Shown: one piece after another, positions 103-19,100 of the stretch
How positions within the stretch are numbered: the first letter of the stretch is position 1
Layout of the letters: every line of letters begins with the position of its first letter
IMG/VR virus record: IMGVR_UViG_3300027743_000002
Coordinates: 1 to 64,000 of that record
DNA length: 64,000 nt
Direction: 5' to 3' (one strand)
From: a virus
Notes under the pieces: generated by a model
The model's database searches: none
Seen by the model: the letters and a program-made list of their open reading frames with translations, nothing else
What the model was told of the DNA's origin: nothing
Made by a program: the position numbers and the translations under genes

Positions 103-131
103 TTGATTTAATCTGGCACACGCATTACACT
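103..131 (+). promoter_or_regulatory. Sigma70-like promoter of the head operon
   Basis: TTGATT-17 nt-TACACT upstream of ATG 179. Confidence 0.5.
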
Positions 132-178
132 CCGCTCCGTGCAGCTAGCCACGCAACCAGCGTTTGCGGCTGTGATTA

Positions 179-1735
179 ATGAGTCAGTCAGAAAGTTCTA
201 TCGGGGCTAATACCAGCGCACCGTCCGACGCTGGAGTCGCATCGACCGTGGGAGCACCTGAAAGCTCAAGCCCCTCCACGCAGGACACATCTCTCGCTCC
301 ACAGAGCACGGCTAGCACTCCTACTGCTGAGAATGTTCAAGGTAGTCAACCTTCAAGCGATACTGAGACCGATTTTCTTGACCAGTTACCTTCTATTGAC
401 GAATTGAAGGCGCAGGCAGGACAAGGAATCAAGTACGCCGATGCGTTGGCAAGTCTGAAGGGGGCATTTGACCCGCTAAAGGCCAATTATAAAGAACTTC
501 AATCTAAATATCAGCCTTATCAAGACGTTTTATCGCGTTTTGAGCAGCCTGAACAACTGCAAGAAGTTCTAGGATTCCGAGACAGCATAATTGCGTGGGA
601 GAACGATCCCGTAACAGGGGAACCCGTTCCTGCGCCGAATGTGCAGTTTTTACAGGAAAAGTACCGCTCACACGCGGACTATCTCGTTGCTGATTTATTG
701 AATTTGCCCACGGTTGACCCCGAAACGGGTCGAGAAGTGCCGAGGGCGGATTTGATCCTTGAAGCGTGGCGGGATTCACCTGAAAGACGTGCTCATGTAG
801 CAAAAGTCTTGGGATTAGTTGAGCCATCGGCTATCGCCCCACAGTGGCAACCGACTGAAGAAGAATTAAGCCTCGTTCGTCCTGAATTGCAGGATGTTTA
901 TCGGAAATTACCTTACGAAGAACGTGAGGAATTGAAGCTGAACAGCCCTGAATTCATCAATCGAGCGTTGGAGAAAGAGCAATTCCAACAGCAGTTGATT
1001 GAGCGCGACAAGCAAACGCAAGAAGCGCAGAAACAACAGGCCCAACAGCGTGAACAATATCTCAATTCCCAAGCCCAACAAGCAGGAACTGAGTATGTAA
1101 ACACGCAACTTAATCAGGCGTTGACCACTTTCCACGAATCGGTTGTGCAACAGTGCAACTTCATCAAACCGCTTGATCCGGCAAACCTCCCACAAGGGGT
1201 TACACCGGAGCAGGCCGCGCAAATGAACCAGCAAATTGCTTCGTCGAACAAAGCTGAGGCTGCTCAGATAACAGGACTCGTGGTGAGTCTGTTTAACCCG
1301 CAGACACAGGCTTATGTACTGCCTCTCTTGAAAGAGATCGGGGCAGTGGACGACAAGATGTTGAGTCAGATGGAAAAGGCGGCAAGCGCGTTTGGGAACA
1401 ACGGCAGAAATTACGGGAATCTGAATTATCGTCAACAGTTACAGACGAACGGCAACGGTTATCAGCCGAGCGCGGACGTAACGGGGATGAATAATGAAGC
1501 CCAGAGAGCGTTGAAAACCATGATTGGCTACGCGAACCAGATTCGCGGGAAACTGATGGAGCAACGCAGTAATTTCTTCAGTTTGAAGGCCACTGAGCAT
1601 AATCAAACCTTGAACGGCGCAGGAACGGTGCGACCCCCCATCAACGGAACGGGCTACAATCCTACTACCGCGCCTCCGGTTCAATTACCCTCTGGAAAAC
1701 TAACCAGAGCGGATATTGACCGCCTCTACGGTTAA
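179..1735 (+). CDS. Putative capsid scaffolding protein
   Basis: 518 aa; S/T/P-rich N-terminus, Q/E-rich coiled coil; directly upstream of the capsid-sized gene. Confidence 0.6.
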   Translation: MSQSESSIGANTSAPSDAGVASTVGAPESSSPSTQDTSLAPQSTASTPTAENVQGSQPSSDTETDFLDQLPSIDELKAQAGQGIKYADALASLKGAFDPLKANYKELQSKYQPYQDVLSRFEQPEQLQEVLGFRDSIIAWENDPVTGEPVPAPNVQFLQEKYRSHADYLVADLLNLPTVDPETGREVPRADLILEAWRDSPERRAHVAKVLGLVEPSAIAPQWQPTEEELSLVRPELQDVYRKLPYEEREELKLNSPEFINRALEKEQFQQQLIERDKQTQEAQKQQAQQREQYLNSQAQQAGTEYVNTQLNQALTTFHESVVQQCNFIKPLDPANLPQGVTPEQAAQMNQQIASSNKAEAAQITGLVVSLFNPQTQAYVLPLLKEIGAVDDKMLSQMEKAASAFGNNGRNYGNLNYRQQLQTNGNGYQPSADVTGMNNEAQRALKTMIGYANQIRGKLMEQRSNFFSLKATEHNQTLNGAGTVRPPINGTGYNPTTAPPVQLPSGKLTRADIDRLYG

Positions 1736-1748
1736 ATAGGAGAGAATC

Positions 1749-3050
1749 ATGCCAGAAGTCGATACCGTATCTAATTGGGTGGATTTTTATTCCCAACAGC
1801 TAATCCGCGCCAAGGATTGGTCAATTTTAGCCGCCCCCTTTTGGAATTCCCTCGGTGAAGTAACGACCGCCGAAGAAGTTTCGCAACGTGGCGCACGTCT
1901 TTATTTCGTGAAAAACCAAGCAGGCGGCGATTCACTGCCGACTATTGCCAACCCCGACAACAACCGCGCTATTCCACCGCAGTCAGACAGCATGTGGGCA
2001 GTTCCACAGATGTCCACTACTACTGCTGTGCTTGATTATTCCCTGATGGTCGATGCAGGTGGCGCAAATGGCCCCAAGAAGGCCAACGCCATGTTCACAA
2101 TTCAGGAAATCATCTCACAGACCGTGGATGCCTTTGCCCAACGCCAAGAATACTATTCTATGGGTAACGGCAGTGCAGCAATGGCGTTTTCAGCGGGCAG
2201 TATTGCCGCTCCTGGCGCAGGTCAGACCTTGACTTGCACTACGTCTGCTGCCGCGACTCCAGGACAGACCAAGGGCGCAGTCAGGCTGAAGGCGAATCAG
2301 TATTATCAGTCCTACGACACGACCACTGGTTTGCCCGAAGGAACCTTCCTCGTTACGAGTTCCAACAACAAAACCACCGCAACTATCACCTTGTTGAGCG
2401 GTATCATCACTTCGGGAAACCCGATCACTATTGTTGGGGGCTACAATGGTGCTCCTATGGGAGTCTCAGGACTGATTGATGACAACAACCGCATCGTTCA
2501 GGGTCGAGATTCCAGCGTGGACACCATTCTTAACTGCCCCTCGGTTGACTTGAACGGAACAAAGTTCACGGTCAGCGACCGCGAGACAGTCAAGACCCAA
2601 CTCGTAGTTCGCAACTTGAGCAAGTCGGAGCGCGGTGGTCTAAACAACCTCGTCACTCCAGGCTTGATGAGCGACCTCCGCAAACAGGGTTACGGCTTCC
2701 ACCGCACCAACGGCGACGAACCCGTAGTTGACATCGCAGGCGGCTACAAAGATGCAGACGGTACACGCATCATGGAAATGTCGAATTGGGAAGAAGATCG
2801 CTCAACCTTCTGGAAGGGTGACGCACTTCAGAAGCACACTCAGTTTCCAATCGGTGATCTGATGCCCAACGGCAACAACCTCGATTGGTGGAATCTCCCA
2901 GGTGTCAACGGTACAGGTTCACGCTCGTACTACAGGCAATGGGGGACAAGCTACACCTGTGCCCTTGTTAATCCTAACTGTGTCACCACAGTTAAACGCA
3001 GTTCGTTGACAGGGATCGTCACCCAGGTATCAATCGGAGCCGGAAACTAA
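1749..3050 (+). CDS. Putative major capsid protein
   Basis: 433 aa; strong SD (AGGAGAG); follows scaffold; internal G/T/A-rich beta insertion. Confidence 0.65.
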   Translation: MPEVDTVSNWVDFYSQQLIRAKDWSILAAPFWNSLGEVTTAEEVSQRGARLYFVKNQAGGDSLPTIANPDNNRAIPPQSDSMWAVPQMSTTTAVLDYSLMVDAGGANGPKKANAMFTIQEIISQTVDAFAQRQEYYSMGNGSAAMAFSAGSIAAPGAGQTLTCTTSAAATPGQTKGAVRLKANQYYQSYDTTTGLPEGTFLVTSSNNKTTATITLLSGIITSGNPITIVGGYNGAPMGVSGLIDDNNRIVQGRDSSVDTILNCPSVDLNGTKFTVSDRETVKTQLVVRNLSKSERGGLNNLVTPGLMSDLRKQGYGFHRTNGDEPVVDIAGGYKDADGTRIMEMSNWEEDRSTFWKGDALQKHTQFPIGDLMPNGNNLDWWNLPGVNGTGSRSYYRQWGTSYTCALVNPNCVTTVKRSSLTGIVTQVSIGAGN

Positions 3051-3061
3051 GGAGGAATCGC

Positions 3062-3313
3062 ATGGCTTATACAACAGCAGCCGCTCCTTATCAGATTGGC
3101 CCTGGATCGAATGATAATTCGTCGGGGATGATCTTTGAGGACATCACCGTAACCGGAGCCGGAGACACGACCGGAACGTACACAACCAAGTACGTCAAGC
3201 AACCCGTTTATGTCGTCGGCCCGTTTACTTACAGCATTTCGGGCCAAGTGGTCACGCTTGGCAGCGCGTCCTTAACGGGAGTTGAGGCAGCACGAATAGT
3301 CGGATTCGCATGA
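3062..3313 (+). CDS. Putative capsid decoration protein
   Basis: 83 aa, T/G/V-rich beta-type; SD AAGGAGG; follows capsid gene. Confidence 0.45.
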   Translation: MAYTTAAAPYQIGPGSNDNSSGMIFEDITVTGAGDTTGTYTTKYVKQPVYVVGPFTYSISGQVVTLGSASLTGVEAARIVGFA

Positions 3314-4050
3314 TCATCAAGCCACGCGACGGGGCGGAAAGTTGGCAACCCAACGAACCGCCCCCAAGCAACTTCGACCAAGCCGCGTATCAGCAGAAAA
3401 TCGACAAGATCGTCGGTACTAAAGATACGCGGCCCATCATTAAACTCGCGTGGGCACCAGAGGAATTTCGTTGGTGGCCCATTCGGGTAGATGAAGAAGA
3501 ACCCAAGGGTTATGTCTTTCCGATCTTTCACGCTTACACGACCGCTGAAGGGAAGTTGGTAGCTGCGCCTCGGTGGGTACTCTTAGAACGGATTGAGCCT
3601 GCGCAGTATGCCCCGACACCGCAGTTTTGGGAGAGCAAGCGGTATCAGTTTGACGACGGTTCATTGTGGGACTTGACGGGGCCAGTTCCCGACGAGAAGT
3701 ACATTGAATTACGTTGCCACTCGCACCATGACGGAATCTGTTGTGCGTGCATTGGAACGACATGTGAATGTGGAATTGAATATGCTCATTGTTGGGGTAG
3801 GTACGCAGAGCCGGATGAGCATCTGTTAAATTGGATACGGCAAAAGAATTGGGAAGCACAACATGATAATGACGTGCAACCCGACGCTGATGCGCGGTAC
3901 TTTTCGGCTCCGCAAAGTCAGGCTGATTACAAGTCGGAGATTGTAAATCGGCAGGAGCAGCAGAAAGAAGATCGGCGCAAGTACAACGATTACATGTTAG
4001 ACCATTGGGAACGTAAACCTGTTTCGACCGTAGGCCCAACTAGGGCATAA
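3310..4050 (+). CDS. Hypothetical protein with Cys/His cluster
   Basis: ATGA overlap with previous gene; CHSHHDGICCACIGTTCECG. Confidence 0.7.
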   Translation: MIIKPRDGAESWQPNEPPPSNFDQAAYQQKIDKIVGTKDTRPIIKLAWAPEEFRWWPIRVDEEEPKGYVFPIFHAYTTAEGKLVAAPRWVLLERIEPAQYAPTPQFWESKRYQFDDGSLWDLTGPVPDEKYIELRCHSHHDGICCACIGTTCECGIEYAHCWGRYAEPDEHLLNWIRQKNWEAQHDNDVQPDADARYFSAPQSQADYKSEIVNRQEQQKEDRRKYNDYMLDHWERKPVSTVGPTRA

Positions 4051-4057
4051 AGGACAT

Positions 4058-5287
4058 TTGATGTCGCAAGTTTTAGAAGTCAGTCAAGGTTATCCGGTAG
4101 AAGGTCGGCCCTTTGAGCCACCACAACTCAGTCGGCAGAACGAGCAACCCCGTTACATCACCTTTGTTGGCAGTCTCGTTGAGGCAAGTGTTGCTCTCGA
4201 CCGCCCGTGGACAAAGGGCGGGGGCATTGAAATCGGCAATCCTTGTCTGCGGTACACAAAGAACTTTGTCCGCAAAGGTCGGATTACTCCGGTACTGAAA
4301 GACGTTCACGATTGGGTAACTCAAGACTATTGGGAGAAAGCGACGGGCAGGGACGCGAGTTATTTTCCGCGCCAAGTTCCCGCAGGCTATGTATCTCCAC
4401 TGAACGAGAGTGGACATCCTAGCCCTATCAGAGCCATGTACGGCAAGATCGCAGTACCTGGGGAGCAGATGGATTCGATTCTCAATGGTTCTGCCAACAT
4501 CCTTGACCGCACGCGACGAGGAGTGGTGGAACTGACCGAGTTAGCGGGGCACGAATACAATCCGCAAGACTTGGGTGACGGGATTGTTACCGACCCGACG
4601 ATTTGGAAGATTCAACGAACGATTCTGCCTGACTATCCATTCATTATGAAAGATGGTCAGCCAACGGTGTTGTTGGATGACATTGAAGAAGTCCTGCTTG
4701 ATGCACAGCGACATACATCGTTGCGGTCGATTGTGGACAAGTATCTGACTTCGCTGAATCAGTTCCGCGACTTCGCTAAAGGGTCAGTTGATCAGACTCA
4801 CTATCGGATGAAAGAGTCGGCGGTGAAGTCGGATTCCGGCTACATCTGGAAGTACACTGAACTTGATTTCGTGTTGATGGAGCAGTTGGGTGTTCAGCGT
4901 CAAGACAGAGAGATTCGCCAAGCGAACAAGGCCCAACCAAACGAGCGGTTGGAGAACATGTTCGAGCAGTGGTTAGCGATTCAGATTGAGGAGAAGCAGG
5001 CTAACCTTGAGCGACAGAAGCAGTTTGCAGTTGACCAGAACACGATGGCCGCAGCCCCGATTCAAGACAAAGGATTCGACGGGCAATCTGGTTATTCGGG
5101 CTATTCAGGGGAAGTGGTGACAAATGCCACAGCCCAAGGCCAAGAGGAAATCGCCGTAGCGATGGCTGATACGATGCACACATGCGAGTGTGGGAAAGAA
5201 TTCGACACCGCGCAGGGCATTTCAATGCACAAGGCTCGTTGGTGTGAACTGCTAAACAAGACAGAGACGGGAGAAGACAACGCCTAA
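4058..5287 (+). CDS. Hypothetical protein with C-terminal C2H-type zinc finger
   Basis: 409 aa; HTCECGKEFDTAQGISMHKARWC; short GQSGYSGYSG motif. Confidence 0.7.
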   Translation: MMSQVLEVSQGYPVEGRPFEPPQLSRQNEQPRYITFVGSLVEASVALDRPWTKGGGIEIGNPCLRYTKNFVRKGRITPVLKDVHDWVTQDYWEKATGRDASYFPRQVPAGYVSPLNESGHPSPIRAMYGKIAVPGEQMDSILNGSANILDRTRRGVVELTELAGHEYNPQDLGDGIVTDPTIWKIQRTILPDYPFIMKDGQPTVLLDDIEEVLLDAQRHTSLRSIVDKYLTSLNQFRDFAKGSVDQTHYRMKESAVKSDSGYIWKYTELDFVLMEQLGVQRQDREIRQANKAQPNERLENMFEQWLAIQIEEKQANLERQKQFAVDQNTMAAAPIQDKGFDGQSGYSGYSGEVVTNATAQGQEEIAVAMADTMHTCECGKEFDTAQGISMHKARWCELLNKTETGEDNA

Positions 5288-6041
5288 TCTCTACGACATC
5301 GGAACCAACACGCGAGTTCGACTCGGAATGCCACGGTCAGAGGCTCCGACAGAACTCGCTGTGTTGAATCAGAACTGCTCGCAGATTAGAAATCTCAAGA
5401 AGTTCAAGCGAGCCACGGGCAATCCGTGGGACTTCAACGACCTTGTGTTGGAGACTTCGGCTGACGAATCCACCTACCAAATTAGTCAGACCGATTTTGG
5501 GCAACCTCTCGCGGTGCTAACGTGGGCACCCGAACTCTCCACTTGGACACCTCGTTTAATCAAAATCTTTGAACCGCAGAACTTGGTGCTAAACATTCCC
5601 ACAGTGGGGAATAATACCTTAGCGAGTTACGCTTATTTACCGTGGGACGGTTCTAACTGCACCGCTCAACGGTGTGCCTTCTATTGGCGCAACAACGTGC
5701 CTTTTATCGAGTTTTGGCCCGCACCGACAACTTCGATAGCGTCTTATAAAATTCGCTACCTTCAGAACAGTAACAACTTAAATACCATCTCTCTAAATGA
5801 AGCCCCTTTGCAGAATGACGATTGCGATCTTGTTGAAATCCGTTCTGCGCTTGCGTTGCTTCCGTTGACGCAATGGATGGCTGAAGAAGGGGACGGTTTG
5901 GCTTACAACGCGAACAAACGTAAGGAACTCGCGGCAAGTTTGGGCGCAGAAGAACAAGAAGCCACACGATTGTTTGAAGCAATGGCGCGACAAACTACGG
6001 GGCCAAGAATGTATCAACGATGGAATCCGACAGTGGGCTAA
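5280..6041 (+). CDS. Putative head-tail adaptor; probable ACG start at 5280 (first ATG is 5328)
   Basis: SD GGAGA then in-frame ACG-CCT-AAT-CTC; YWRNNVPFIEFWPAP..YKIRY resembles adaptor proteins. Confidence 0.5.
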   Translation, partial: TPNLYDIGTNTRVRLGMPRSEAPTELAVLNQNCSQIRNLKKFKRATGNPWDFNDLVLETSADESTYQISQTDFGQPLAVLTWAPELSTWTPRLIKIFEPQNLVLNIPTVGNNTLASYAYLPWDGSNCTAQRCAFYWRNNVPFIEFWPAPTTSIASYKIRYLQNSNNLNTISLNEAPLQNDDCDLVEIRSALALLPLTQWMAEEGDGLAYNANKRKELAASLGAEEQEATRLFEAMARQTTGPRMYQRWNPTVG

Positions 6042-6317
6042 ATGCAGACCTCACCGCTAAAAAACGGCGATAAACTTCCCGATCATCCTAGCGACACCAC
6101 CGCTTTACAAATAACCAAGTACGGACGAGTTTTTGACGCAACCGATGGGCTAGAGTTACTGCCTAATCTCCACCGAACTGAGATCGGAATGTTACGGGGT
6201 GGAGAAAGAGGCGGTCTATCTCATTTGTACAGATTTCACATCGAATCCGGCCACATTTTTCACACACGAGCGGCGGCTGTAGTTGAGGTAGAATGTGAAA
6301 GTATTGACTCTGAATAG
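6042..6317 (+). CDS. Hypothetical protein; its 3' end is mirrored by pentamer array 2
   Basis: 91 aa; ATG directly after the upstream TAA. Confidence 0.7.
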   Translation: MQTSPLKNGDKLPDHPSDTTALQITKYGRVFDATDGLELLPNLHRTEIGMLRGGERGGLSHLYRFHIESGHIFHTRAAAVVEVECESIDSE

Positions 6318-6332
6318 CGAATAGAGTAGATT
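6304..6332 (+). promoter_or_regulatory. Promoter of the RAMP/pentamer cassette
   Basis: TTGACT-17 nt-TAGATT; predicted +1 near 6339 coincides with the first base of the leader stem. Confidence 0.65.
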
Positions 6333-6338
6333 GCTCCC

Positions 6339-6468
6339 GCCGACCAAGATTGAATGGCGTGGGCTTTGTTTTTAGCCTTAACAGATTCCAGATACTTAGA
6401 CCAAAATCGTCCGCGCTTGTCTTGGTCGGCAGGCTCTAACGAAGGTCGGGTGTCTGGAATTTGTTTTT
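6339..6468 (+). ncRNA. Structured leader RNA with interleaved helices
   Basis: 6339-6349 pairs perfectly with 6420-6430; 6380-6395 pairs with 6450-6465 (2 G-U), followed by a T run. Confidence 0.55.
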
Positions 6469-6471
6469 CAG

Positions 6472-6536
6472 GGAGTGGCGTGGTGCGCTGGTTTAGGGTT
6501 GGCATAGGTCAGTTCCGGCTTGGTATGGTGCGCTAT
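6472..6536 (+). repeat. Pentamer array 1 (G[G]Y-NN); putative guide RNA
   Basis: 13 units: gga-gt ggc-gt ggt-gc gct-gg ttt-ag ggt-tg gca-ta ggt-ca gtt-cc ggc-tt ggt-at ggt-gc gct-at. Confidence 0.8.
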
Positions 6537-6556
6537 TCCTCTAAGGAGAATCTGTT

Positions 6557-7192
6557 ATGGCTACAGCAAAAGCAAAACTAGAAGCATTGAGTCCGGTGTC
6601 AAACGATGCCGCAGAAACGATTTCATTTGAGGAACCGTATATCGTGACGGTTCAGATTGAAGGCACTGCGCCGATTCTTTTCCATCGGTGGTCTTGTGAA
6701 GACGTGGAAGCCAAGGCCAACGCAAAGAAGAACTCCAAAGCTAAGAAAACCGACAATGTGGAGTCCTACATCTATCGCAATGAGTTGAATCAAATCTGTT
6801 TGCCAGGTGAGTACGTGCGGCAGACAATTATTCATGCCGCGAAGTTCAAGCAAGACCCGCGTTCACCTCGTAAATCGGCAATGGACTTGTTCAAGGCGTC
6901 GATTGTGGCGTTGACCGAACTCGCACCGTTGAATGGTGGTACAGAAACGTGGGATTACATTGACCAACGACGAGTAGTGATTCAGCGGGCAGCTATCACG
7001 CGAATGCGGCCCGCGTTTGCGAAAGGATGGACAGCAGAGATGGATTTCTCGATTCTCTGTCCTGAGTATGTTGATCCACATTTGTTTAATGAGGTGTTGG
7101 CTCTATCTGGAAAGTTGATCGGCACAGCAGATGGTCGCCCTAGTTATGGACGATTTCAAGTGAACAAGTGCTCTGTAGTTGGGCTTGCTTAG
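6557..7192 (+). CDS. Stand-alone RAMP/Cas7-like RNA-binding protein
   Basis: 211 aa; N-terminal VQIEGTAPILFH strand, LPGEYVRQTI helix, C-terminal G-rich loop GKLIGTADGRPSYGRF typical of RAMP proteins; SD TAAGGAG. Confidence 0.75.
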   Translation: MATAKAKLEALSPVSNDAAETISFEEPYIVTVQIEGTAPILFHRWSCEDVEAKANAKKNSKAKKTDNVESYIYRNELNQICLPGEYVRQTIIHAAKFKQDPRSPRKSAMDLFKASIVALTELAPLNGGTETWDYIDQRRVVIQRAAITRMRPAFAKGWTAEMDFSILCPEYVDPHLFNEVLALSGKLIGTADGRPSYGRFQVNKCSVVGLA

Positions 7193-7318
7193 GTTATGGC
7201 TAATTCAGCCACGGTCGGCTAGGTATCGTTGTGTTGTGGTATGCCGAGCAGTGGTGAGGGTGGCTGCGGAATGTTCCGCTTTGGTCTTGCAACGGTGAGG
7301 CGTGGCCTTATAAGGAGA
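7193..7318 (+). repeat. Pentamer array 2 (G[G]Y-NN); putative guide RNA
   Basis: G at the first position in 18 of 19 units 7193-7287; 1-nt register slip at 7288; 6 more units ending in palindrome CCTTATAAGG. Confidence 0.85.
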
Positions 7319-7383
7319 GTTGCGGTGAGGTATGGAACGGCGAGCTGAGCATGGTCGTGTTGGGGTTCGGTTTGGTCAGGTAA
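7319..7383 (+). repeat. Pentamer array 3 (G[G]Y-NN); putative guide RNA
   Basis: 13 of 13 units begin with G: gtt-gc ggt-ga ggt-at gga-ac ggc-ga gct-ga gca-tg gtc-gt gtt-gg ggt-tc ggt-tt ggt-ca ggt-aa. Confidence 0.85.
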
Positions 7384-7422
7384 GAAAGAGCTAAGATAAG
7401 ATTCATTATCTTGGCTCTTTCT
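7383..7422 (+). terminator. 17-bp hairpin closing the cassette
   Basis: agaaagagctaagataa-gattca-ttatcttggctctttct, one U-G pair. Confidence 0.7.
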
Positions 7423-7439
7423 ATTGTATACTCAACGAA

Positions 7440-9488
7440 ATGCCTAAGTTGACGAGGGAAGAAACTCAAACACTCTTTAGAGCTTTAGAGATTTCTTCTT
7501 TGTCCGAGATCGATGATGATTGGGTAGGCCAGTTTCTCTCCAAACTCAACGACCCTGTAAAGAAAGCCGCGTGGAATCAACTTCTCGGAATCATCGAAGA
7601 ATTCCGTCCTGAAGAATACAAACGCCTCAACAACTTCGCCAAGAACAACAAGGGAATGCTGCTGGAGTTCCAAGGATGGGAACGCTGGTTAAAGACTCTG
7701 GGAGCGCAGACCTTTACCCGCGACTTTGCCCCGATTCAAAAGAGATTTTGGGATTGGAATTGGCGAGCGTTGCTGAAGATTCGCAAGAACGTCCCGCTTG
7801 ATCCGAAAGAGATGGTTGGCTTTTTACCATGGTCCAGGGAGACGGGGAAAAGTTCAGTAACCGAGTGGGCGTGCATTGCCGAAGGAGCCTTGCTCAGAGG
7901 CGGGTATGTCATCTTCTACTCAGGCAAGCAATCGCAAGCAGAGGAACACGTTACTTCAATCCGTGACCGCATTGAATCTGAGCATGTCAGTGACCTTTAT
8001 CCGTGGTTAGGGAAGCCCAAGGTCGGCGCACACGGAAACAAGTTTGGATGGGGTAAAGAGTTCCTGATGACGAGTGGTGGTTGGGCCATCCGACCTGTTG
8101 GAGCTGATGTAGCGATACGCGGCGGTAAGACACTCAACCTTAGACCAACGCTGATCGTGGTAGACGACCTTGATGAACTCGGTGAGTCACCCGTTGTGGT
8201 CGAACACAAGGAACAGATTCTCACTCGCTCAATTCTGCCGATGGGGAATGACAAAACTCGTGTACTTGTCCCGCAGAATCCCATTCACGCGAACTCAGTA
8301 GTCAATCGAATGCTGACGGGCGTGTCACTTGCGTTGGCGATTAGAACCGTGTTCGGGGAGTTGAATGATGACGGTTCAATGTCCACTCGTCCTGTACCTG
8401 CGGTGCGCGACTTTGCTTACGAAGTCCGCCAAACCGATGAAGGCCCATTCTCTAAAATCACTCAAGGCGAAACGAACTGGCCTGGGATTACGATAGAAGG
8501 TTGGGAGCGAACTCTTAATCGTGTTGGGCCACTAGCATTCGAGAGCGAATACCAACACCGACTCGACGTAATGTTAGAGGAAAGGGTTCTTCCCGAATAC
8601 GATGACAGGGTGCTACGGACGAATCTGATTTCGTGGAGTCAATATGAAACAATGTATGGGACTCGTCGGATTCCGAGTGATTGGATTTGTGATGTTGGTT
8701 GCGATATTGGATATTCGGTAGGCCATCGAACTGCGTTTACATTTCTCACGCGAGCACCGCACGGCGCACCTCTAGCGGGAAGTATTTTTCGTTATCGAGG
8801 ATGTGTATTCACGGCTACCACGATTGGAGAAATGAGCACATCAGTAAAAGCCCGTCTATGGCCTGATGAAAACCTTCAGCGGGAATGGTTGAGTCACGAG
8901 AAGTTAGGCGAGCGGCTAGTGCTTAATCGAGAGCATGGTTGGCACTTCCAGACGTGCGAAAGTGCAAAAACCGCAGGAATTCCGCAATGGAGGCACTTTC
9001 TCAAGTCTGATAAGACGCAGCCGCATCCATTTCACCGAGATGAAAAAAGTGTAGATGGCTTGTGGAAGATTGGTCGTCCAGCATGGTTTGATGTTGTGGA
9101 CGATGACCAGTTCTTTCAACCCTATGATGACCGTGGATTAAAGGTGCATCGTGACCAAGCATTTAATTGGCGACTAAAGCCTGAGAAGCTGACGGAAAGC
9201 GGGCTGACTATTCAGCAGCCTATGAAGGCAGACGAAGATTCCTGCGACGCTACGAGAATGTGTACAGCCGCTCCAAATTTTGGGCCAACTATGCGAGGAA
9301 TGACCCAATATGAAAAGGTGCAAGCCATTATCCCGCAGGGCTATCATGTTAATGAGTTAGTCAAACGTGTTGACTTAGACCCTAACCAACAACACATGAC
9401 TGGTCAGATGGCAACCTTTTTAGCGAGAAAAACATTAGGCTTGGATAAGCCTAAATTAGTTGATCCATGGGGCCAGCCGATAAGGTAA
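7440..9488 (+). CDS. terL: Terminase large subunit
   Basis: 682 aa; Walker A SRETGKS, Walker B IVVDDLD, FESEYQH, RNase H-like GCDIG and C-terminal DEDSCDA. Confidence 0.9.
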   Translation: MPKLTREETQTLFRALEISSLSEIDDDWVGQFLSKLNDPVKKAAWNQLLGIIEEFRPEEYKRLNNFAKNNKGMLLEFQGWERWLKTLGAQTFTRDFAPIQKRFWDWNWRALLKIRKNVPLDPKEMVGFLPWSRETGKSSVTEWACIAEGALLRGGYVIFYSGKQSQAEEHVTSIRDRIESEHVSDLYPWLGKPKVGAHGNKFGWGKEFLMTSGGWAIRPVGADVAIRGGKTLNLRPTLIVVDDLDELGESPVVVEHKEQILTRSILPMGNDKTRVLVPQNPIHANSVVNRMLTGVSLALAIRTVFGELNDDGSMSTRPVPAVRDFAYEVRQTDEGPFSKITQGETNWPGITIEGWERTLNRVGPLAFESEYQHRLDVMLEERVLPEYDDRVLRTNLISWSQYETMYGTRRIPSDWICDVGCDIGYSVGHRTAFTFLTRAPHGAPLAGSIFRYRGCVFTATTIGEMSTSVKARLWPDENLQREWLSHEKLGERLVLNREHGWHFQTCESAKTAGIPQWRHFLKSDKTQPHPFHRDEKSVDGLWKIGRPAWFDVVDDDQFFQPYDDRGLKVHRDQAFNWRLKPEKLTESGLTIQQPMKADEDSCDATRMCTAAPNFGPTMRGMTQYEKVQAIIPQGYHVNELVKRVDLDPNQQHMTGQMATFLARKTLGLDKPKLVDPWGQPIR

Positions 9489-16109: not shown

Positions 16110-19100
16110 ATGCCGAACACTCCTGATCTCACCGATCTGTTCGACAAGCCCAACCCACGCACGCGGGTTCATTCCATAGCGTCTAAAGCAGGACTTCCCC
16201 CCGACATTGCCGACGATTACCTACGACTCACCAAGATTGAATCGGGACATAACACTAACGTCCGCGATTCCAGCAAAGGAGCGCAGGGCTTTGGTCAGGT
16301 AATGCCTGACGTGAAGGGCGGCACGACGCGCACGGTTGGCGGGAAACGCTATAACTTGCGGAATGCAGATGAAAACATCGAAGCAGGAATTCGCTATTTC
16401 GCAGAAGGGGGCAATGACCCCGTAGCGCGACGATTACATTACTTCGGTGGCCCAAAAGCGAAACAGCGTTACGAGCGCACGGGCAAGATGCCTAACATCT
16501 CTGATGGCAATATGACCGCCGCACAGTATGTGAAAGCAACGGGCGGAAATCAGAAACCGCAGTCGGCATCTCCTGATTTATCGGACTTGTTCGACAAACC
16601 TTCGGGACAGACCCAACCTGCCACGTCAAAGCAAAACCGTGTCAACAACCTACCCCCAACTCCAGCTACAACCCCCGTTAGTTCACGGCAACAGTCTGTC
16701 CCTAAGCAACCAATTCAGCGACGTGGGCCAACGAATCCGTTTGACTTCCAACGTCCCGCGCCAAGATTGGAAGTCGGAGCAAAAGTAGGCGGCCCACAAG
16801 CGTCTCAGGGTGTAGGTGATCTACGCCGCCAAGATGAGCGAGACTTAGCCCGTATGAGCCGTATTCGAGGCCAAGTGACTTCAGAGCAGACGGACGCGGA
16901 GCAACAGATGGGTCGTGCTCCAAACACTGCTCAAGCGCGTCTATTTGACCCGAAACTGAATGTTGATGAAGAAGTGCTGAAACGCATCAGTCAAGAGCAA
17001 GACACTGAGAAGGCCCAAGCAGACGCGCAAGCCGAACAGCAAAGACTCATTGGACAGTTCACCGATGCAGATCGCGCAGAAATAGCCGACTTCACGAATC
17101 ACCTTCAAGGCAAAGGGGGAGTCTATTCAGGAATCCGTGCAGGTATTCGACGTGGTGGTTCATCTGCTCTCTACAAACTCGCTGGACTTGCGGAAATTGG
17201 GAATCAAGTAGCCAAGAGAACAGTTGGAGAGTCGTGGATACCTGACTATTTGCGGAAGAAGGCTCTCGCGGGAGAGTTGTCAGTCAACGACATTCCTGAA
17301 GACAAACGGAATCAGCTCGCGGAGTTTCTAGCGCAATCAGGAGTGGGGTTAGCCGAACTCGCAGCAGCTCCAGGTTCGATTACCACGAAGTTTGCAGGTA
17401 TGGCGGGAAGCGAAGCGTTGGGTCGAAATCTTCCTGCTAAAGAAGTCGCCCGTGAGACCGCTAAAGGCGCGGCGATGGGGGCGGTACAGAAGTACGGCGA
17501 AGGACTCGCGCCTGCAAGCGCAGGACGATTCAAACGTGCAGCGGTGAGTGCTCCTGCGGTTGGGATCGGAAGTGGTGCAGTTGAGTTAGCAACGGGAGCT
17601 ACGCCACGAGAAGCAGCTTTGAGCGCGGTGACGAACGCGGCCTTTCAAGGGGGTGGTGAGATGTTACGCCGAACCCCGCAAAGGAGATTAAGTGAAGCAG
17701 AAGCAGCACCCAAGCAAGAGGTTAATGTCCCTGAGCGTCCAGAAACGATTGCGGCGCAACTAGCAGCCGTACAGCAAGGCACTAGACCCGCAGTCTTGGT
17801 GACGAGAGGTGAGAAACAACCCAACACTCCTAGGGGAATGAGCGCGGTCAGAACAAGTGAAGGAACCTTCTATTACGATCCGAAGCAGGTTAGTCGGGAA
17901 ACCTTACTTGCCAAAGTGAAGGATGGGACTTACGGCGAAGTTCTCGGACACATAGAACCTAAATCAGCAGCGACTACAGAAGCAGTTGTAGCGCGTGCTG
18001 CTGATGGAACTGAAGTACAAGCCTCAGCGGTGTCACCTGAGAACGTAGCGAAGCAAGCTGAAGTGTTACAAGCGCAGCATCCTGAAGCCACGATTGAAAC
18101 GGGTGGTAATGAATTAGCGCAGAAGGTCATTCAGGATCGGGTTGCACCTGAAGTAAGAGGCTTTGATGATGTTCCTTTAACTGAGCGAGAAAGAGCGGAA
18201 CTCGACACTTATTTTGATGTGGAATCGAGAATTCCTGAAAGTGAGAGAGTACCACCTAAGCCCGCAAAGATAGACATTCTGGGAGAGACTGAAGTAGCCC
18301 CGAAACCTCTTGCGCGCCGAGAATTATTGGAACTTACGGACGCAGAGTTGGATGTTCGTGAGTCGCCTGTGCCGAAAGGAATGACACGTTTGTATCGTGG
18401 CGGCGTAGAAGGGAATTGGTTTTCGTCGGAGCGTGATACGGCGCGATTTCACTTGGATAATGCGACGGGGCGCAAACCAACGCTGCGTTATGTGGATGTA
18501 CCAACTGCTGATTTAGCGAAATACGACGCCTTTGAACATCCCCGCGTAGTATCGGGCCGCGAACAAGCGGAAGCGGGTGATTACATTTTACCAAAAGAAC
18601 TAACCGCGCAAGCACGAGACTTGGCGACTGAGACAGCACCTACAGAAGTAGCACCTATTGAGCCAGTAGTAGCTAAACCTAAAACTCCAGTTACGGAAAC
18701 ACCTGTTACACCAGAGACACCAAGAGCAGCAACGGAACCACGAGAACCATCCACAACTTCTGCTCGTAAAGCGCAGATGGCCCAAGATCGCGCCGAATTA
18801 GATTTGCCCGAACTTGACCCAACAGAACGAAAGACTTGGCGCACAACGCTCGACAACGCAAAAGAGCGTGGACTAGATAAGCGCGGCGACATGCTGGCCG
18901 ATGAGGTCTTAAAGAAGCGTCGTGCCCTTGACGATGAAGAAACCGCAGGCGTGGTACTCCGCACGCAAGAACTCAAGAACCAACACAACCAACTCCTCAA
19001 AGAGATAGCCGAAAGCAAGGATGAAGTAGACATACTTCGTAAAGGCGCAGAGTTGAAACTAATTGAAGATCGCTTTGACCTTAACAGCGAAGCATTGAAG

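What the first reader, a model, noticed from the sequence alone, without database searches (positions are those of the whole stretch)
6304..7422. Self-contained cassette: lone RAMP/Cas7-like protein flanked by 5-nt periodic G(G)Y-NN arrays, a candidate RNA-guided system
Seen: a promoter (TTGACT-17-TAGATT), a structured leader, a 13-unit array, a 211-aa gene ending in GKLIGTADGRPSYGRF, about 38 more pentamers and a 17-bp terminal hairpin, all inserted in the head module before terL. Nearly every fifth base is G. The first three bases are constrained (GGT/GGC/GCT/GTT) and the last two are free. Established: G-loop RAMP/Cas7 proteins polymerise on guide RNA with a fixed nucleotide step. Inference: each subunit grips one GGY and presents one NN. 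This resembles my recollection of recently reported phage VIPR (GGY/NN) systems, which I cannot verify here. There is no CRISPR repeat-spacer array and no nuclease in the cassette.
Basis: partly seen in the sequence, partly recalled or inferred. Interest (0 to 1): 0.97.

Follow-up and report, generated by a model that had tools for sequence, protein, structure and literature searches.

The report
Phage VIPR guide-RNA silencing cassette
This 1.2-kb insert in an uncultured freshwater-sediment phage is a real VIPR system (a Cas7-like protein plus guide RNAs built of five-base repeats, a class first described in 2026 preprints), and one guide spells the start of the terminase gene as carried by the phage's closest known relative, which lacks the cassette.

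Summary
A 211-aa gene (6557-7192) lies between G-every-fifth-base arrays: 13 units upstream (6472-6536) and 41 downstream (7178-7383). A 17-bp hairpin (7383-7422) closes the cassette. No other place in the 64-kb window has comparable G periodicity plus the scaffold pattern.

VIPR is in print (bioRxiv 10.64898/2026.04.26.720920, .720927 and 2026.10.15.759431). The protein matches the solved SUSP1 Vipr protein by sequence (E 4e-11 with a profile) and keeps its GGY-contact residues. Its model has a Csm3/Cas7 fold (Z 9.8). In 30 of 31 relatives' loci, similar arrays lie beside the gene on the same strand.

This member has no accessory (vap) gene. Its scaffold is relaxed: G 96%, then G/C/T, then mostly T/C, then two free bases.

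New here: the cassette is a clean 1.2-kb indel relative to the closest relative phage, G001, which has no vipr. Read by the published skip-one-base rule, the last guide matches G001's terL codons 22-30 perfectly. The phage's own terL differs at two of those codons. A second guide resembles the 3' end of the upstream gene.

No RNA data exist. This scan has already found VIPR loci in hundreds of other genomes. Verdict: new member of a known kind.

The parts
6231..7439 (.). Cassette as an indel: present here, replaced by about 70 nt in the collinear relative phage G001
   Evidence: blastn of the own genome against G001 aligns 126-6230 (89% identity) and 7440-9220 (75%), with 6231-7439 uncovered. 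G001 has no vipr at E<=10.
6304..6332 (+). Promoter-like site TTGACT-17-TAGATT (a similar TTGACC-17-TATAGA in L002)
   Evidence: This is a consensus match only and not above chance on its own.
6380..6466 (+). Leader stem-loop closed by an 18-bp helix (6381-6398 with 6449-6466), ending 5 nt before the first repeat unit
   Evidence: dG -43.2, z -6.9. There are 5 compensatory pair changes between the window and L002. 6287-6469 is nearly identical in contigs of other metagenomes.
6472..6536 (+). Upstream vrRNA-type array U, 13 units; NN = GT GT GC GG AG TG TA CA CC TT AT GC AT
   Evidence: In one metagenome contig these 75 nt are replaced by 81 other letters between near-identical flanks (table 5).
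6557..7192 (+). vipr gene: 211-aa stand-alone RAMP (Cas7-like) protein
   Evidence: PDB 36pp_D 'SUSP1 Vipr protein': E 8e-6 alone, 4.3e-11 with profile A1. Csm3 6ae2_A: Z 9.8, rmsd 3.4, 144 aligned. phrog_4652.
7193..7287 (+). Downstream array D1; 16 units (7193-7272) read as a guide, and in-phase units begin at 7178 inside the ORF end
   Evidence: The 16 NN match the own orf91 3' end (6255-6301) at 24/32, the best place in the genome; the null maximum was 23 in 1000 shuffles.
7294..7383 (+). Downstream array D2, 18 units, one base out of phase with D1 (extra T at 7288); core units 6-14 = 7319-7363
   Evidence: Units 6-14 match G001 terL codons 22-30 perfectly.
7383..7422 (+). 17-bp terminal hairpin (vrRNA 3' cap and/or terminator)
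   Evidence: dG -24.4, z -6.3. L002 has the same hairpin with two compensatory pair changes.
7488..7541 (+). Own terL codons 17-34: the near-match 'self' site for D2 (21/36; core 15/18; differs at codons 22 and 25)
6255..6301 (+). Own orf91 3' end: the near-match site for D1 (24/32, codon-aligned)

Best explanation
The cassette is a vap-less VIPR system. Inferred transcript: one RNA starts near 6335-6340, runs through a structured leader, array U, vipr and arrays D1 and D2, and ends at the 17-bp hairpin. Inferred from SUSP1 cryo-EM and conserved residues: Vipr protomers polymerise on each repeat tract, one per 5-nt unit. They sequester the three scaffold bases (G, G/C/T, T/C/A) and present the two free bases. 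Rule shown for SUSP1, tested here only by computation: the filament reads double-stranded DNA two bases out of every three and silences transcription. Sequence match shown, function inferred: guide D2 is aimed at the 5' coding region of terL as carried by a closely related phage that lacks the cassette. Guide D1 resembles an allele of the 3' end of the upstream gene. In a cassette-less rival these two footprints would lie within about 150 bp across the empty insertion site, which would block its packaging operon during co-infection. The phage's own terL escapes through two codon changes at read positions.
For: (1) The protein is a homolog of the solved SUSP1 Vipr over residues 30-204. SUSP1's GGY contacts H17, E71, R138, D177 and R179 align with H43, E85, R151, D192 and R194. 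Four of these are invariant among 31 relatives and E85 is nearly invariant, at 90% or more. (2) The fold is RAMP: all top Foldseek hits are Csm3/Cas7, and the best VIA-align Z is 9.8, above the paper's discovery cut-off of Z 6. (3) The arrays are 54 five-base units with a conserved scaffold and free NN. Across aligned arrays of three relatives, identity by unit position is 98/49/45/27/29%. (4) In 30 of 31 homolog loci, in unrelated gene contexts, same-strand period-5 arrays abut the gene. (5) The locus has no CRISPR array, no cas gene and no defence-family hit, and it lies in a complete 74.7-kb phage genome. (6) Target: D2 units 6-14 match G001:52116-52142 at 18/18 read bases, with the skipped base at the wobble position. 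The guide has the same sense as the mRNA, so it can pair with DNA but not with terL mRNA. A run of 9 units appears only under the 1-nt skip rule (skips 0, 2 and 3 give at most 7). None of 1500 shuffles of D2 exceeded 7. G001 was identified separately as the closest TerL relative (78% aa). Published functional footprints can be as short as 6 units.
Against: There is no expression, processing or binding evidence for this locus. Only 45% of units are canonical GGY. The G2-stacking tryptophan of SUSP1 (W178) is glycine here (G193). There is no vap gene, and no repeated conserved 3' tail or pseudoknot as in SUSP1. Over all 18 units D2 matches G001 at only 69%, below the papers' 80% rule, so guide boundaries matter. 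The own terL keeps 15/18 in the core, so self-discrimination rests on 3 bases. Guide U has no target. D1's best match (75%) is to the phage's own gene, and its 16-unit frame was chosen after the fact.
Confidence: 0.88

Rival explanations
1. The system is a working VIPR, but its guides regulate the phage's own flanking genes (orf91 and terL) through partial matches. It would time the packaging operon rather than attack rivals.
For: Both near-matches lie in the two genes that flank the cassette, codon-aligned: own orf91 24/32 and own terL 21/36 with 5 consecutive perfect units. Six-unit footprints work in SUSP1.
Against: D2 matches the rival allele better than the own allele (18/18 against 15/18 in the core). 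The published pattern is that self-match scores fall below non-self scores and that there is no self-targeting at 80% or more. Silencing one's own terminase would be costly.
Confidence: 0.12
2. The cassette is a decaying or inactive VIPR remnant. The scaffold has degenerated and the accessory gene is lost, so no functional RNP forms.
For: Canonical GGY makes up only 21 of 47 core units. W178 is replaced by G193. No vap is present.
Against: The ORF is intact and the contact residues are invariant across relatives at 57-89% identity. The same relaxed scaffold occurs in L002-L004. Position 1 G and position 3 non-G are kept at 96-98%, while NN is free. The paper reports working consensus variants and stand-alone vipr genes. 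A 9-unit perfect match to a relative's gene is not expected from decay.
Confidence: 0.07
3. The protein is a type III-like, RNA-targeting Cas7 filament whose guides pair with transcripts.
For: The nearest solved folds other than Vipr are Csm3 and Cmr4, which bind RNA targets.
Against: D2 has the same sense as terL mRNA, so it cannot pair with it. The match needs the 1-nt skip geometry shown for dsDNA. No Cas10, nuclease or CRISPR repeats are present.
Confidence: 0.02
4. The period-5 tracts are DNA-level signals next to terL (packaging or bending sites), unrelated to the RAMP gene.
For: The tracts lie directly upstream of terL, where pac sites often lie.
Against: In relatives the arrays travel with vipr, not with terL: only L002 is syntenic. 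The periodic G is always on the gene's strand. The collinear relative G001 packages without them. The genome has direct terminal repeats at its ends.
Confidence: 0.01

Closest known systems
Type II VIPR of Escherichia phage SUSP1 (Vipr + vap1 + four vrRNAs; bioRxiv 10.64898/2026.04.26.720920, .720927 and 2026.10.15.759431; PDB 36pp)
   Same: Both have a homologous stand-alone RAMP protein with the same GGY-contact residues, five-base units with a conserved scaffold and two free bases, and arrays both upstream and downstream of vipr. Both are phage-borne and lack a CRISPR array. Both have a codon-aligned target with the wobble base skipped and a lower self-match than non-self match.
   Different: The homology is distant (28.6 bits alone). 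There is no vap gene. The second scaffold base is relaxed to G/C/T, and W178 is replaced by Gly. There is no repeated about 40-nt pseudoknot tail; instead a long leader stem-loop and a terminal 17-bp hairpin bracket the arrays. The predicted target is a rival phage's terL rather than a satellite recombinase.
VIPR systems with staggered arrays, alternative repeat consensus or stand-alone vipr (same paper: text, fig. S17-S18 legends, methods)
   Same: D1 and D2 abut with a one-base phase shift and no tail between them. The consensus departs from strict YNNGG. vipr is the only protein gene.
   Different: I could not see the figures or tables (none are held), so the type (I-VII) cannot be assigned. 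The listed variants are NNNGG, YNNNG and NNNNG, whereas here the first G is the conserved one (YNNGN in that notation).
Csm3/Cmr4/Cas7 backbone subunits of class 1 CRISPR effectors
   Same: Both have an RRM core with a G-loop and thumb, and polymerise on a guide RNA at a fixed nucleotide step.
   Different: The step is 5 nt, not 6. There is no crRNA repeat handle, no partner Cas proteins and no adaptation genes. The target is read in a gapped 2-of-3 code.
Homing-endonuclease 'marker exclusion' in T4-type phages (my own knowledge, not checked here)
   Same: This is a resemblance in how it works only. A mobile cassette sits beside a resistant allele of the gene whose sensitive allele it attacks in cassette-less relatives.
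   Different: There is no nuclease, and the predicted action is silencing rather than cleavage and gene conversion. It is not a family member.

Membership tests
VIPR system | Vipr protein: a RAMP fold (RRM core, G-loop, thumb) homologous to known Vipr proteins | tested here: met
   36pp_D SUSP1 Vipr: E 8.1e-6 alone, 4.3e-11 with a profile, covering residues 30-204 of 211. Csm3 6ae2_A: Z 9.8. C-terminal G-loop motif G-x-x-D-x-R-P-x-x-G-R-F.
VIPR system | Residues that read the GGY scaffold in SUSP1 (H17, E71, R138, D177, W178, R179) | tested here: met
   H43, R151, D192 and R194 are invariant and E85 is nearly invariant (90% or more) among 31 relatives. W178 aligns with G193 here (F in most relatives, W in L004). 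Five of six are kept. The alignment is by HMMER, not by structure.
VIPR system | Tandem 5-nt GGY/NN (YNNGG) repeats next to vipr, at least 4 units and typically 9-16 per vrRNA | tested here: met
   There are 13, 16 and 18 units on the gene's strand. The scaffold is G(96%)-G/C/T-T/C/A, and canonical GGY makes up 45% of units. The paper allows related consensus forms.
VIPR system | Scaffold conserved and NN hypervariable among relatives | tested here: met
   Identity by unit position is 98/49/45/27/29%. In another metagenome the array is swapped between near-identical flanks.
VIPR system | Structured, conserved 3' tail after each repeat tract | tested here: inconclusive
   Only D2 is followed by a strong hairpin, which covaries with L002. 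The hairpins after U and D1 are weak (z +0.5 and -1.9). The relative L009 has a repeated 52-nt tail.
VIPR system | Minimal non-CRISPR locus on a virus: no cas genes and no CRISPR array | tested here: met
VIPR system | Accessory vap gene (typical, not universal) | tested here: not met
   There is no ORF between vipr and terL. The small Lys-rich ORF that overlaps the vipr stop in 9 relatives has no homolog in this genome. The paper also lists stand-alone vipr genes, so this does not exclude membership.
VIPR system | Targets read by the 1-nt skip rule, codon-aligned, with no strong self-target | tested here: met
   D2 makes a 9-unit perfect run on G001 terL, only with skip 1. No own-genome site reaches 80% over a whole guide.
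VIPR system | vrRNAs expressed, processed and bound by Vipr; transcriptional silencing | not testable with these tools
   No RNA run is on record for this DNA.
VIPR type I-VII assignment | Position in the published Vipr tree, together with vap and array architecture | not testable with these tools
   The supplementary tables and tree are not held.
CRISPR-Cas class 1 effector | Repeat-spacer array, multiple Cas subunits, 6-nt step | tested here: not met
   There are no such repeats and no Cas family hits. The period is 5.

The most novel reading that the evidence does not exclude
The cassette behaves as a selfish 'weapon beside its antidote' module. Its two downstream guides are aimed at the two genes that flank its own insertion site, as cassette-less relatives carry them, so the footprints bracket the empty site (about 150 bp apart in G001). 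The resistant alleles are inherited in cis with the cassette. In mixed infections this would silence the rival's packaging operon and favour the haplotype that carries the cassette. That would be an RNA-guided, nuclease-free analogue of homing-endonuclease marker exclusion. The array swap between identical flanks hints at how guides are exchanged.
Probability: 0.3. Interest if true: 0.65.

Novelty: new member of a known kind. Interest (0 to 1): 0.42.

Why it matters
VIPR is only months old in print, and experiments cover two type II clades. This locus offers a compact test case of about 1.1 kb with one protein and no accessory gene. It has a relaxed scaffold and a concrete natural target pair: the rival allele is perfect and the own allele differs at two codons. 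That pair would let one measure how many read-base mismatches give self/non-self discrimination, and whether vap is dispensable. The two guides that bracket the empty insertion site suggest a selfish, linkage-based logic for where VIPR cassettes sit. It also corrects database annotation: the homolog in phage DSL-LC04 is filed as a helix-turn-helix regulator.

Tried and rejected
Target searches in public collections:
- Exact 10-unit patterns of U and D1 in IMG/VR gave no hits.
- 8-unit seeds of D2 gave 85, 20 and 2 hits, and the best extension was 25/36. The excess for seed 1 is explained by its codon-like make-up: 64 of 85 hits are in frame, many from one family.
- U units 2-11 in genome contigs gave one hit, in an Oceanococcaceae MAG. 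This is the number expected by chance, and the flanking units match only 1 of 6.
- Two metagenome scans found nothing.

Other target tests:
- All 70 guide chains from 31 loci against those loci and the own genome gave nothing above shuffles.
- An 8-unit run of an L009 guide on G001 is at the null level.
- Guide U has no target near the junction.

Expression: no RNA holder is listed for this DNA.

Ideas that failed:
- Loss of the W178-equivalent residue does not explain the relaxed second G. L004 has W and is equally relaxed, and all non-F loci form one clade.
- A hairpin over the ribosome-binding site at 6535-6551 is not supported (z +0.5). The small hairpins at 7198-7211 and 7266-7279 are weak.

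Other negative searches:
- Rfam has no family here and no hammerhead.
- Pfam, NCBIfam and PADLOC give nothing for the protein.
- TRF does not see the arrays.
- Other G-periodic tracts (own 16269 and 72045; G001 30481 and 33841) lack the scaffold and are chance.
- No isolated phage is close by TerL.

- The VIPR type could not be assigned.

Full report
**1. The observation**

The 211-aa ORF at 6557-7192 and the flanking periodic tracts are real. G autocorrelation at lags 5, 10 and 15 is 0.46, 0.36 and 0.37 downstream of the gene. It is 0.25 at lag 5 upstream and absent inside the ORF. In a scan of every 60-nt window on both strands, only 6463-6541, 7174-7398 and one coding stretch at 16269-16332 reach 10 of 12 Gs in one phase. 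The coding stretch lacks the scaffold pattern.

A dynamic-programming parse gives these arrays:
- U: 13 units at 6472-6536.
- Downstream: 41 units at 7178-7383, with a single extra base at 7288.

The logo over 47 core units is as follows:
- Position 1: G 96%.
- Position 2: G 55%, C 23%, T 19%.
- Position 3: T 64%, C 15%, A 19%, G 2%.
- Positions 4 and 5: essentially free, and all 16 dinucleotides occur.

The terminal hairpin 7383-7422 has 17 pairs and z -6.3. The promoter-like site exists but is not statistically notable.

**2. What is known**

The library holds three 2026 preprints on Viral Interference Programmable Repeat systems. They report the following:
- Vipr is a stand-alone RAMP protein found mostly in phages.
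- vrRNAs consist of 9-16 YNNGG units followed by a structured 3' tail.
- Each NN pairs with dsDNA while one target base per unit is skipped.
- The outcome is transcriptional silencing of competing mobile elements.
- There are seven types. They have various accessory vap genes, alternative repeat consensus forms, staggered arrays and stand-alone vipr genes.
- Cryo-EM shows one protomer per repeat. H17 and D177 read G1. R138 and W178 hold G2. E71, M72 and R179 form the pyrimidine pocket.
- A six-unit guide with an 18-bp footprint is functional, and self-match scores are lower than non-self scores.

**3. The protein**

Pfam, NCBIfam and PADLOC give nothing. PHROGs gives phrog_4652, of unknown function. 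Against PDB sequences the only hit is 36pp_D, 'SUSP1 Vipr protein'. It scores E 8.1e-6 alone and 4.3e-11 with a profile of 31 relatives, over residues 30-204.

In that alignment, H17, E71, R138, D177 and R179 fall on H43, E85, R151, D192 and R194. Four of these are invariant in the family and E85 is nearly invariant (90% or more). W178 falls on G193, which is F in most relatives.

An AlphaFold model has mean pLDDT 70, with low confidence in the presumed thumb and G-loop. With Foldseek it finds only Csm3/Cas7-type chains at the top. With VIA-align the best Z is 9.8 to Csm3 6ae2_A (rmsd 3.4, 144 residues aligned), and the first 35 or so rows are all Cas7-family proteins.

The family is large: 5848 proteins at E<=0.001.

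**4. Relatives**

I examined thirty IMG/VR loci and phage DSL-LC04, where the gene is annotated as an HTH regulator. In 30 of these 31 loci, same-strand period-5 arrays lie directly beside the gene; the exception is cut off at the gene. Only L002 shares the gene neighbourhood, so the arrays travel with vipr.

Array styles differ among relatives:
- L009 has strict GGC.NN tracts, each followed by the same 52-nt tail.
- L022 and L031 separate tracts by GGCC-tetraloop-GGCC mini-hairpins.
- Nine loci have arrays only upstream, plus a small Lys-rich ORF that overlaps the vipr stop. This ORF is a candidate vap, and it has no homolog in this genome.

Across the aligned downstream arrays of the window, L002, L003 and L004, identity by unit position is 98, 49, 45, 27 and 29%.

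Contigs from other metagenomes add two observations. One carries the leader and the vipr start almost unchanged but replaces the 75-nt U array with 81 other letters. Two others diverge right after 7186. No RNA run is on record.

**5. Anatomy of the transcript (inferred)**

The elements run in this order:
- A promoter-like site.
- A leader whose 18-bp closing helix (6381-6398 with 6449-6466) shows five compensatory changes in L002.
- Array U, then vipr.
- D1, whose in-phase units already start in the last codons of vipr.
- A one-base phase shift, then D2.
- The 17-bp hairpin, which L002 keeps with two compensatory changes.

No ribozyme or other Rfam family is present.

**6. The cassette is an indel**

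The window lies in a complete 74,678-bp virus record with terminal repeats. Its closest TerL relative in IMG/VR (78% aa) is a 72.5-kb, 97%-complete record, G001. The two genomes are collinear over 47% of their length at 85% identity.

Positions 126-6230 and 7440-9220 align with G001, and exactly 6231-7439 is missing there, replaced by about 70 nt. G001 has no vipr. In G001 the orf91 homolog overlaps the terL start. In the window, a diverged copy of that overlap seems to remain at the left border (weak).

**7. Targets**

Collection-wide exact searches with 10-unit patterns found nothing convincing. One 8-unit seed hit of D2 lay in G001. This was noticed only after G001 had been found separately through TerL.

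Read by the skip-one rule, D2 aligns with G001 terL codons 17-34 on the coding strand, with the skipped base at the wobble position. Per-unit matches are 2,1,1,0,0,2,2,2,2,2,2,2,2,2,0,2,1,0. Units 6-14 spell A-E-I-T-D-D-W-V-G perfectly.

The own terL reads S-E-I-D-D-D-W-V-G, which is 15/18 in the core.

The controls were these:
- Among all 70 guide chains tested on both genomes, a 9-unit run appears only for this guide and only with skip 1. Other skips give at most 7.
- 1500 shuffles of D2 never exceeded 7.
- The whole-guide score is 25/36, against a null maximum of 24.

Because the guide has the same sense as the mRNA, it can pair with the template DNA strand but not with the transcript.

They match the own orf91 3' end (6255-6301) at 24/32. 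This is the best site in the genome, against a null maximum of 23 in 1000 shuffles. The G001 allele scores only 19/32. The intended allele is therefore not sampled, and the frame was chosen after the fact. Guide U has no target.

**8. Reading**

Membership in VIPR is well supported (about 0.9). The mechanism is carried over from SUSP1. That D2 is aimed at rival terL alleles I put at about 0.65. That the two guides bracket the empty site as part of a selfish linkage strategy I put at about 0.3. Autoregulation of the phage's own genes and functional decay are the main alternatives.

**9. Novelty**

The class is in print, and this scan has already noted VIPR loci in at least 328 genomes. These include guides aimed at rivals' terminase, portal and other genes next to an altered own copy. 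This locus is a new member.

Its particular points are:
- It has no vap gene.
- Its scaffold is relaxed at position 2, and glycine stands at the W178 position.
- Hairpins, not repeated tails, bound the arrays.
- It forms a clean presence/absence pair with a targeted relative.

Noticed in passing
L001 4612-5055; L017 3612-4052; also L006, L014, L018, L019, L023, L026, L030: In nine relatives, a 114-147-aa ORF overlaps the vipr stop codon. It has a Lys/Ala/Pro-rich (AKKPAKK-like) N-terminal tail and a helical C-terminal part. It has no Pfam family. It is a candidate DNA-binding vap gene. These loci carry arrays only upstream.
   Followed up: partly
L009 3591-4171: Four copies of an identical 52-nt element (GGGCCTTATTGCAAGGAATAGGGCGGCTAAGAACCGCCTTATGACGTGCAAT) separate strict GGC.NN tracts of 11-19 units. 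This is a textbook vrRNA array with a tail, beside a 62%-identical Vipr. L022 and L031 use 13-nt GGCC-tetraloop-GGCC hairpins instead.
   Followed up: partly
window 6469-6545 (metagenome run X3, table 5): A contig from another sediment metagenome has near-identical leader and vipr start, but carries 81 different letters in place of the 75-nt U array. This is a guide swap between conserved flanks.
   Followed up: no
window 6287-6317 versus 7440-7463 and G001:52038-52073: The last codons of orf91 look like a diverged copy of the first 7 codons of terL. In G001 the two genes overlap there. The cassette therefore seems flanked by a short duplication of its insertion site, and the -35 box TTGACT lies in it. 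The alignment is short and weak.
   Followed up: partly
window 6333-6373: A GC-rich hairpin followed by TTTGTTTTT lies just after the promoter-like site and is kept in L002 and L003. It looks like an intrinsic terminator. It may end the upstream operon or regulate read-through into the VIPR transcript. It also competes with an alternative long-range pairing, CGACCAAGA (6342) with TCTTGGTCG (6421).
   Followed up: partly
L001 (OR003939.1 22429-23046): The Vipr homolog of isolated phage DSL-LC04 (57% identical) is annotated as 'helix-turn-helix transcriptional regulator'. Its upstream 300 nt are a 58-unit GGY/NN array that carries no annotation.
   Followed up: partly
window 7440-9220 versus 126-6230: terL is markedly more diverged from G001 (75% nt identity) than the block upstream of the cassette (89%).
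   Followed up: no
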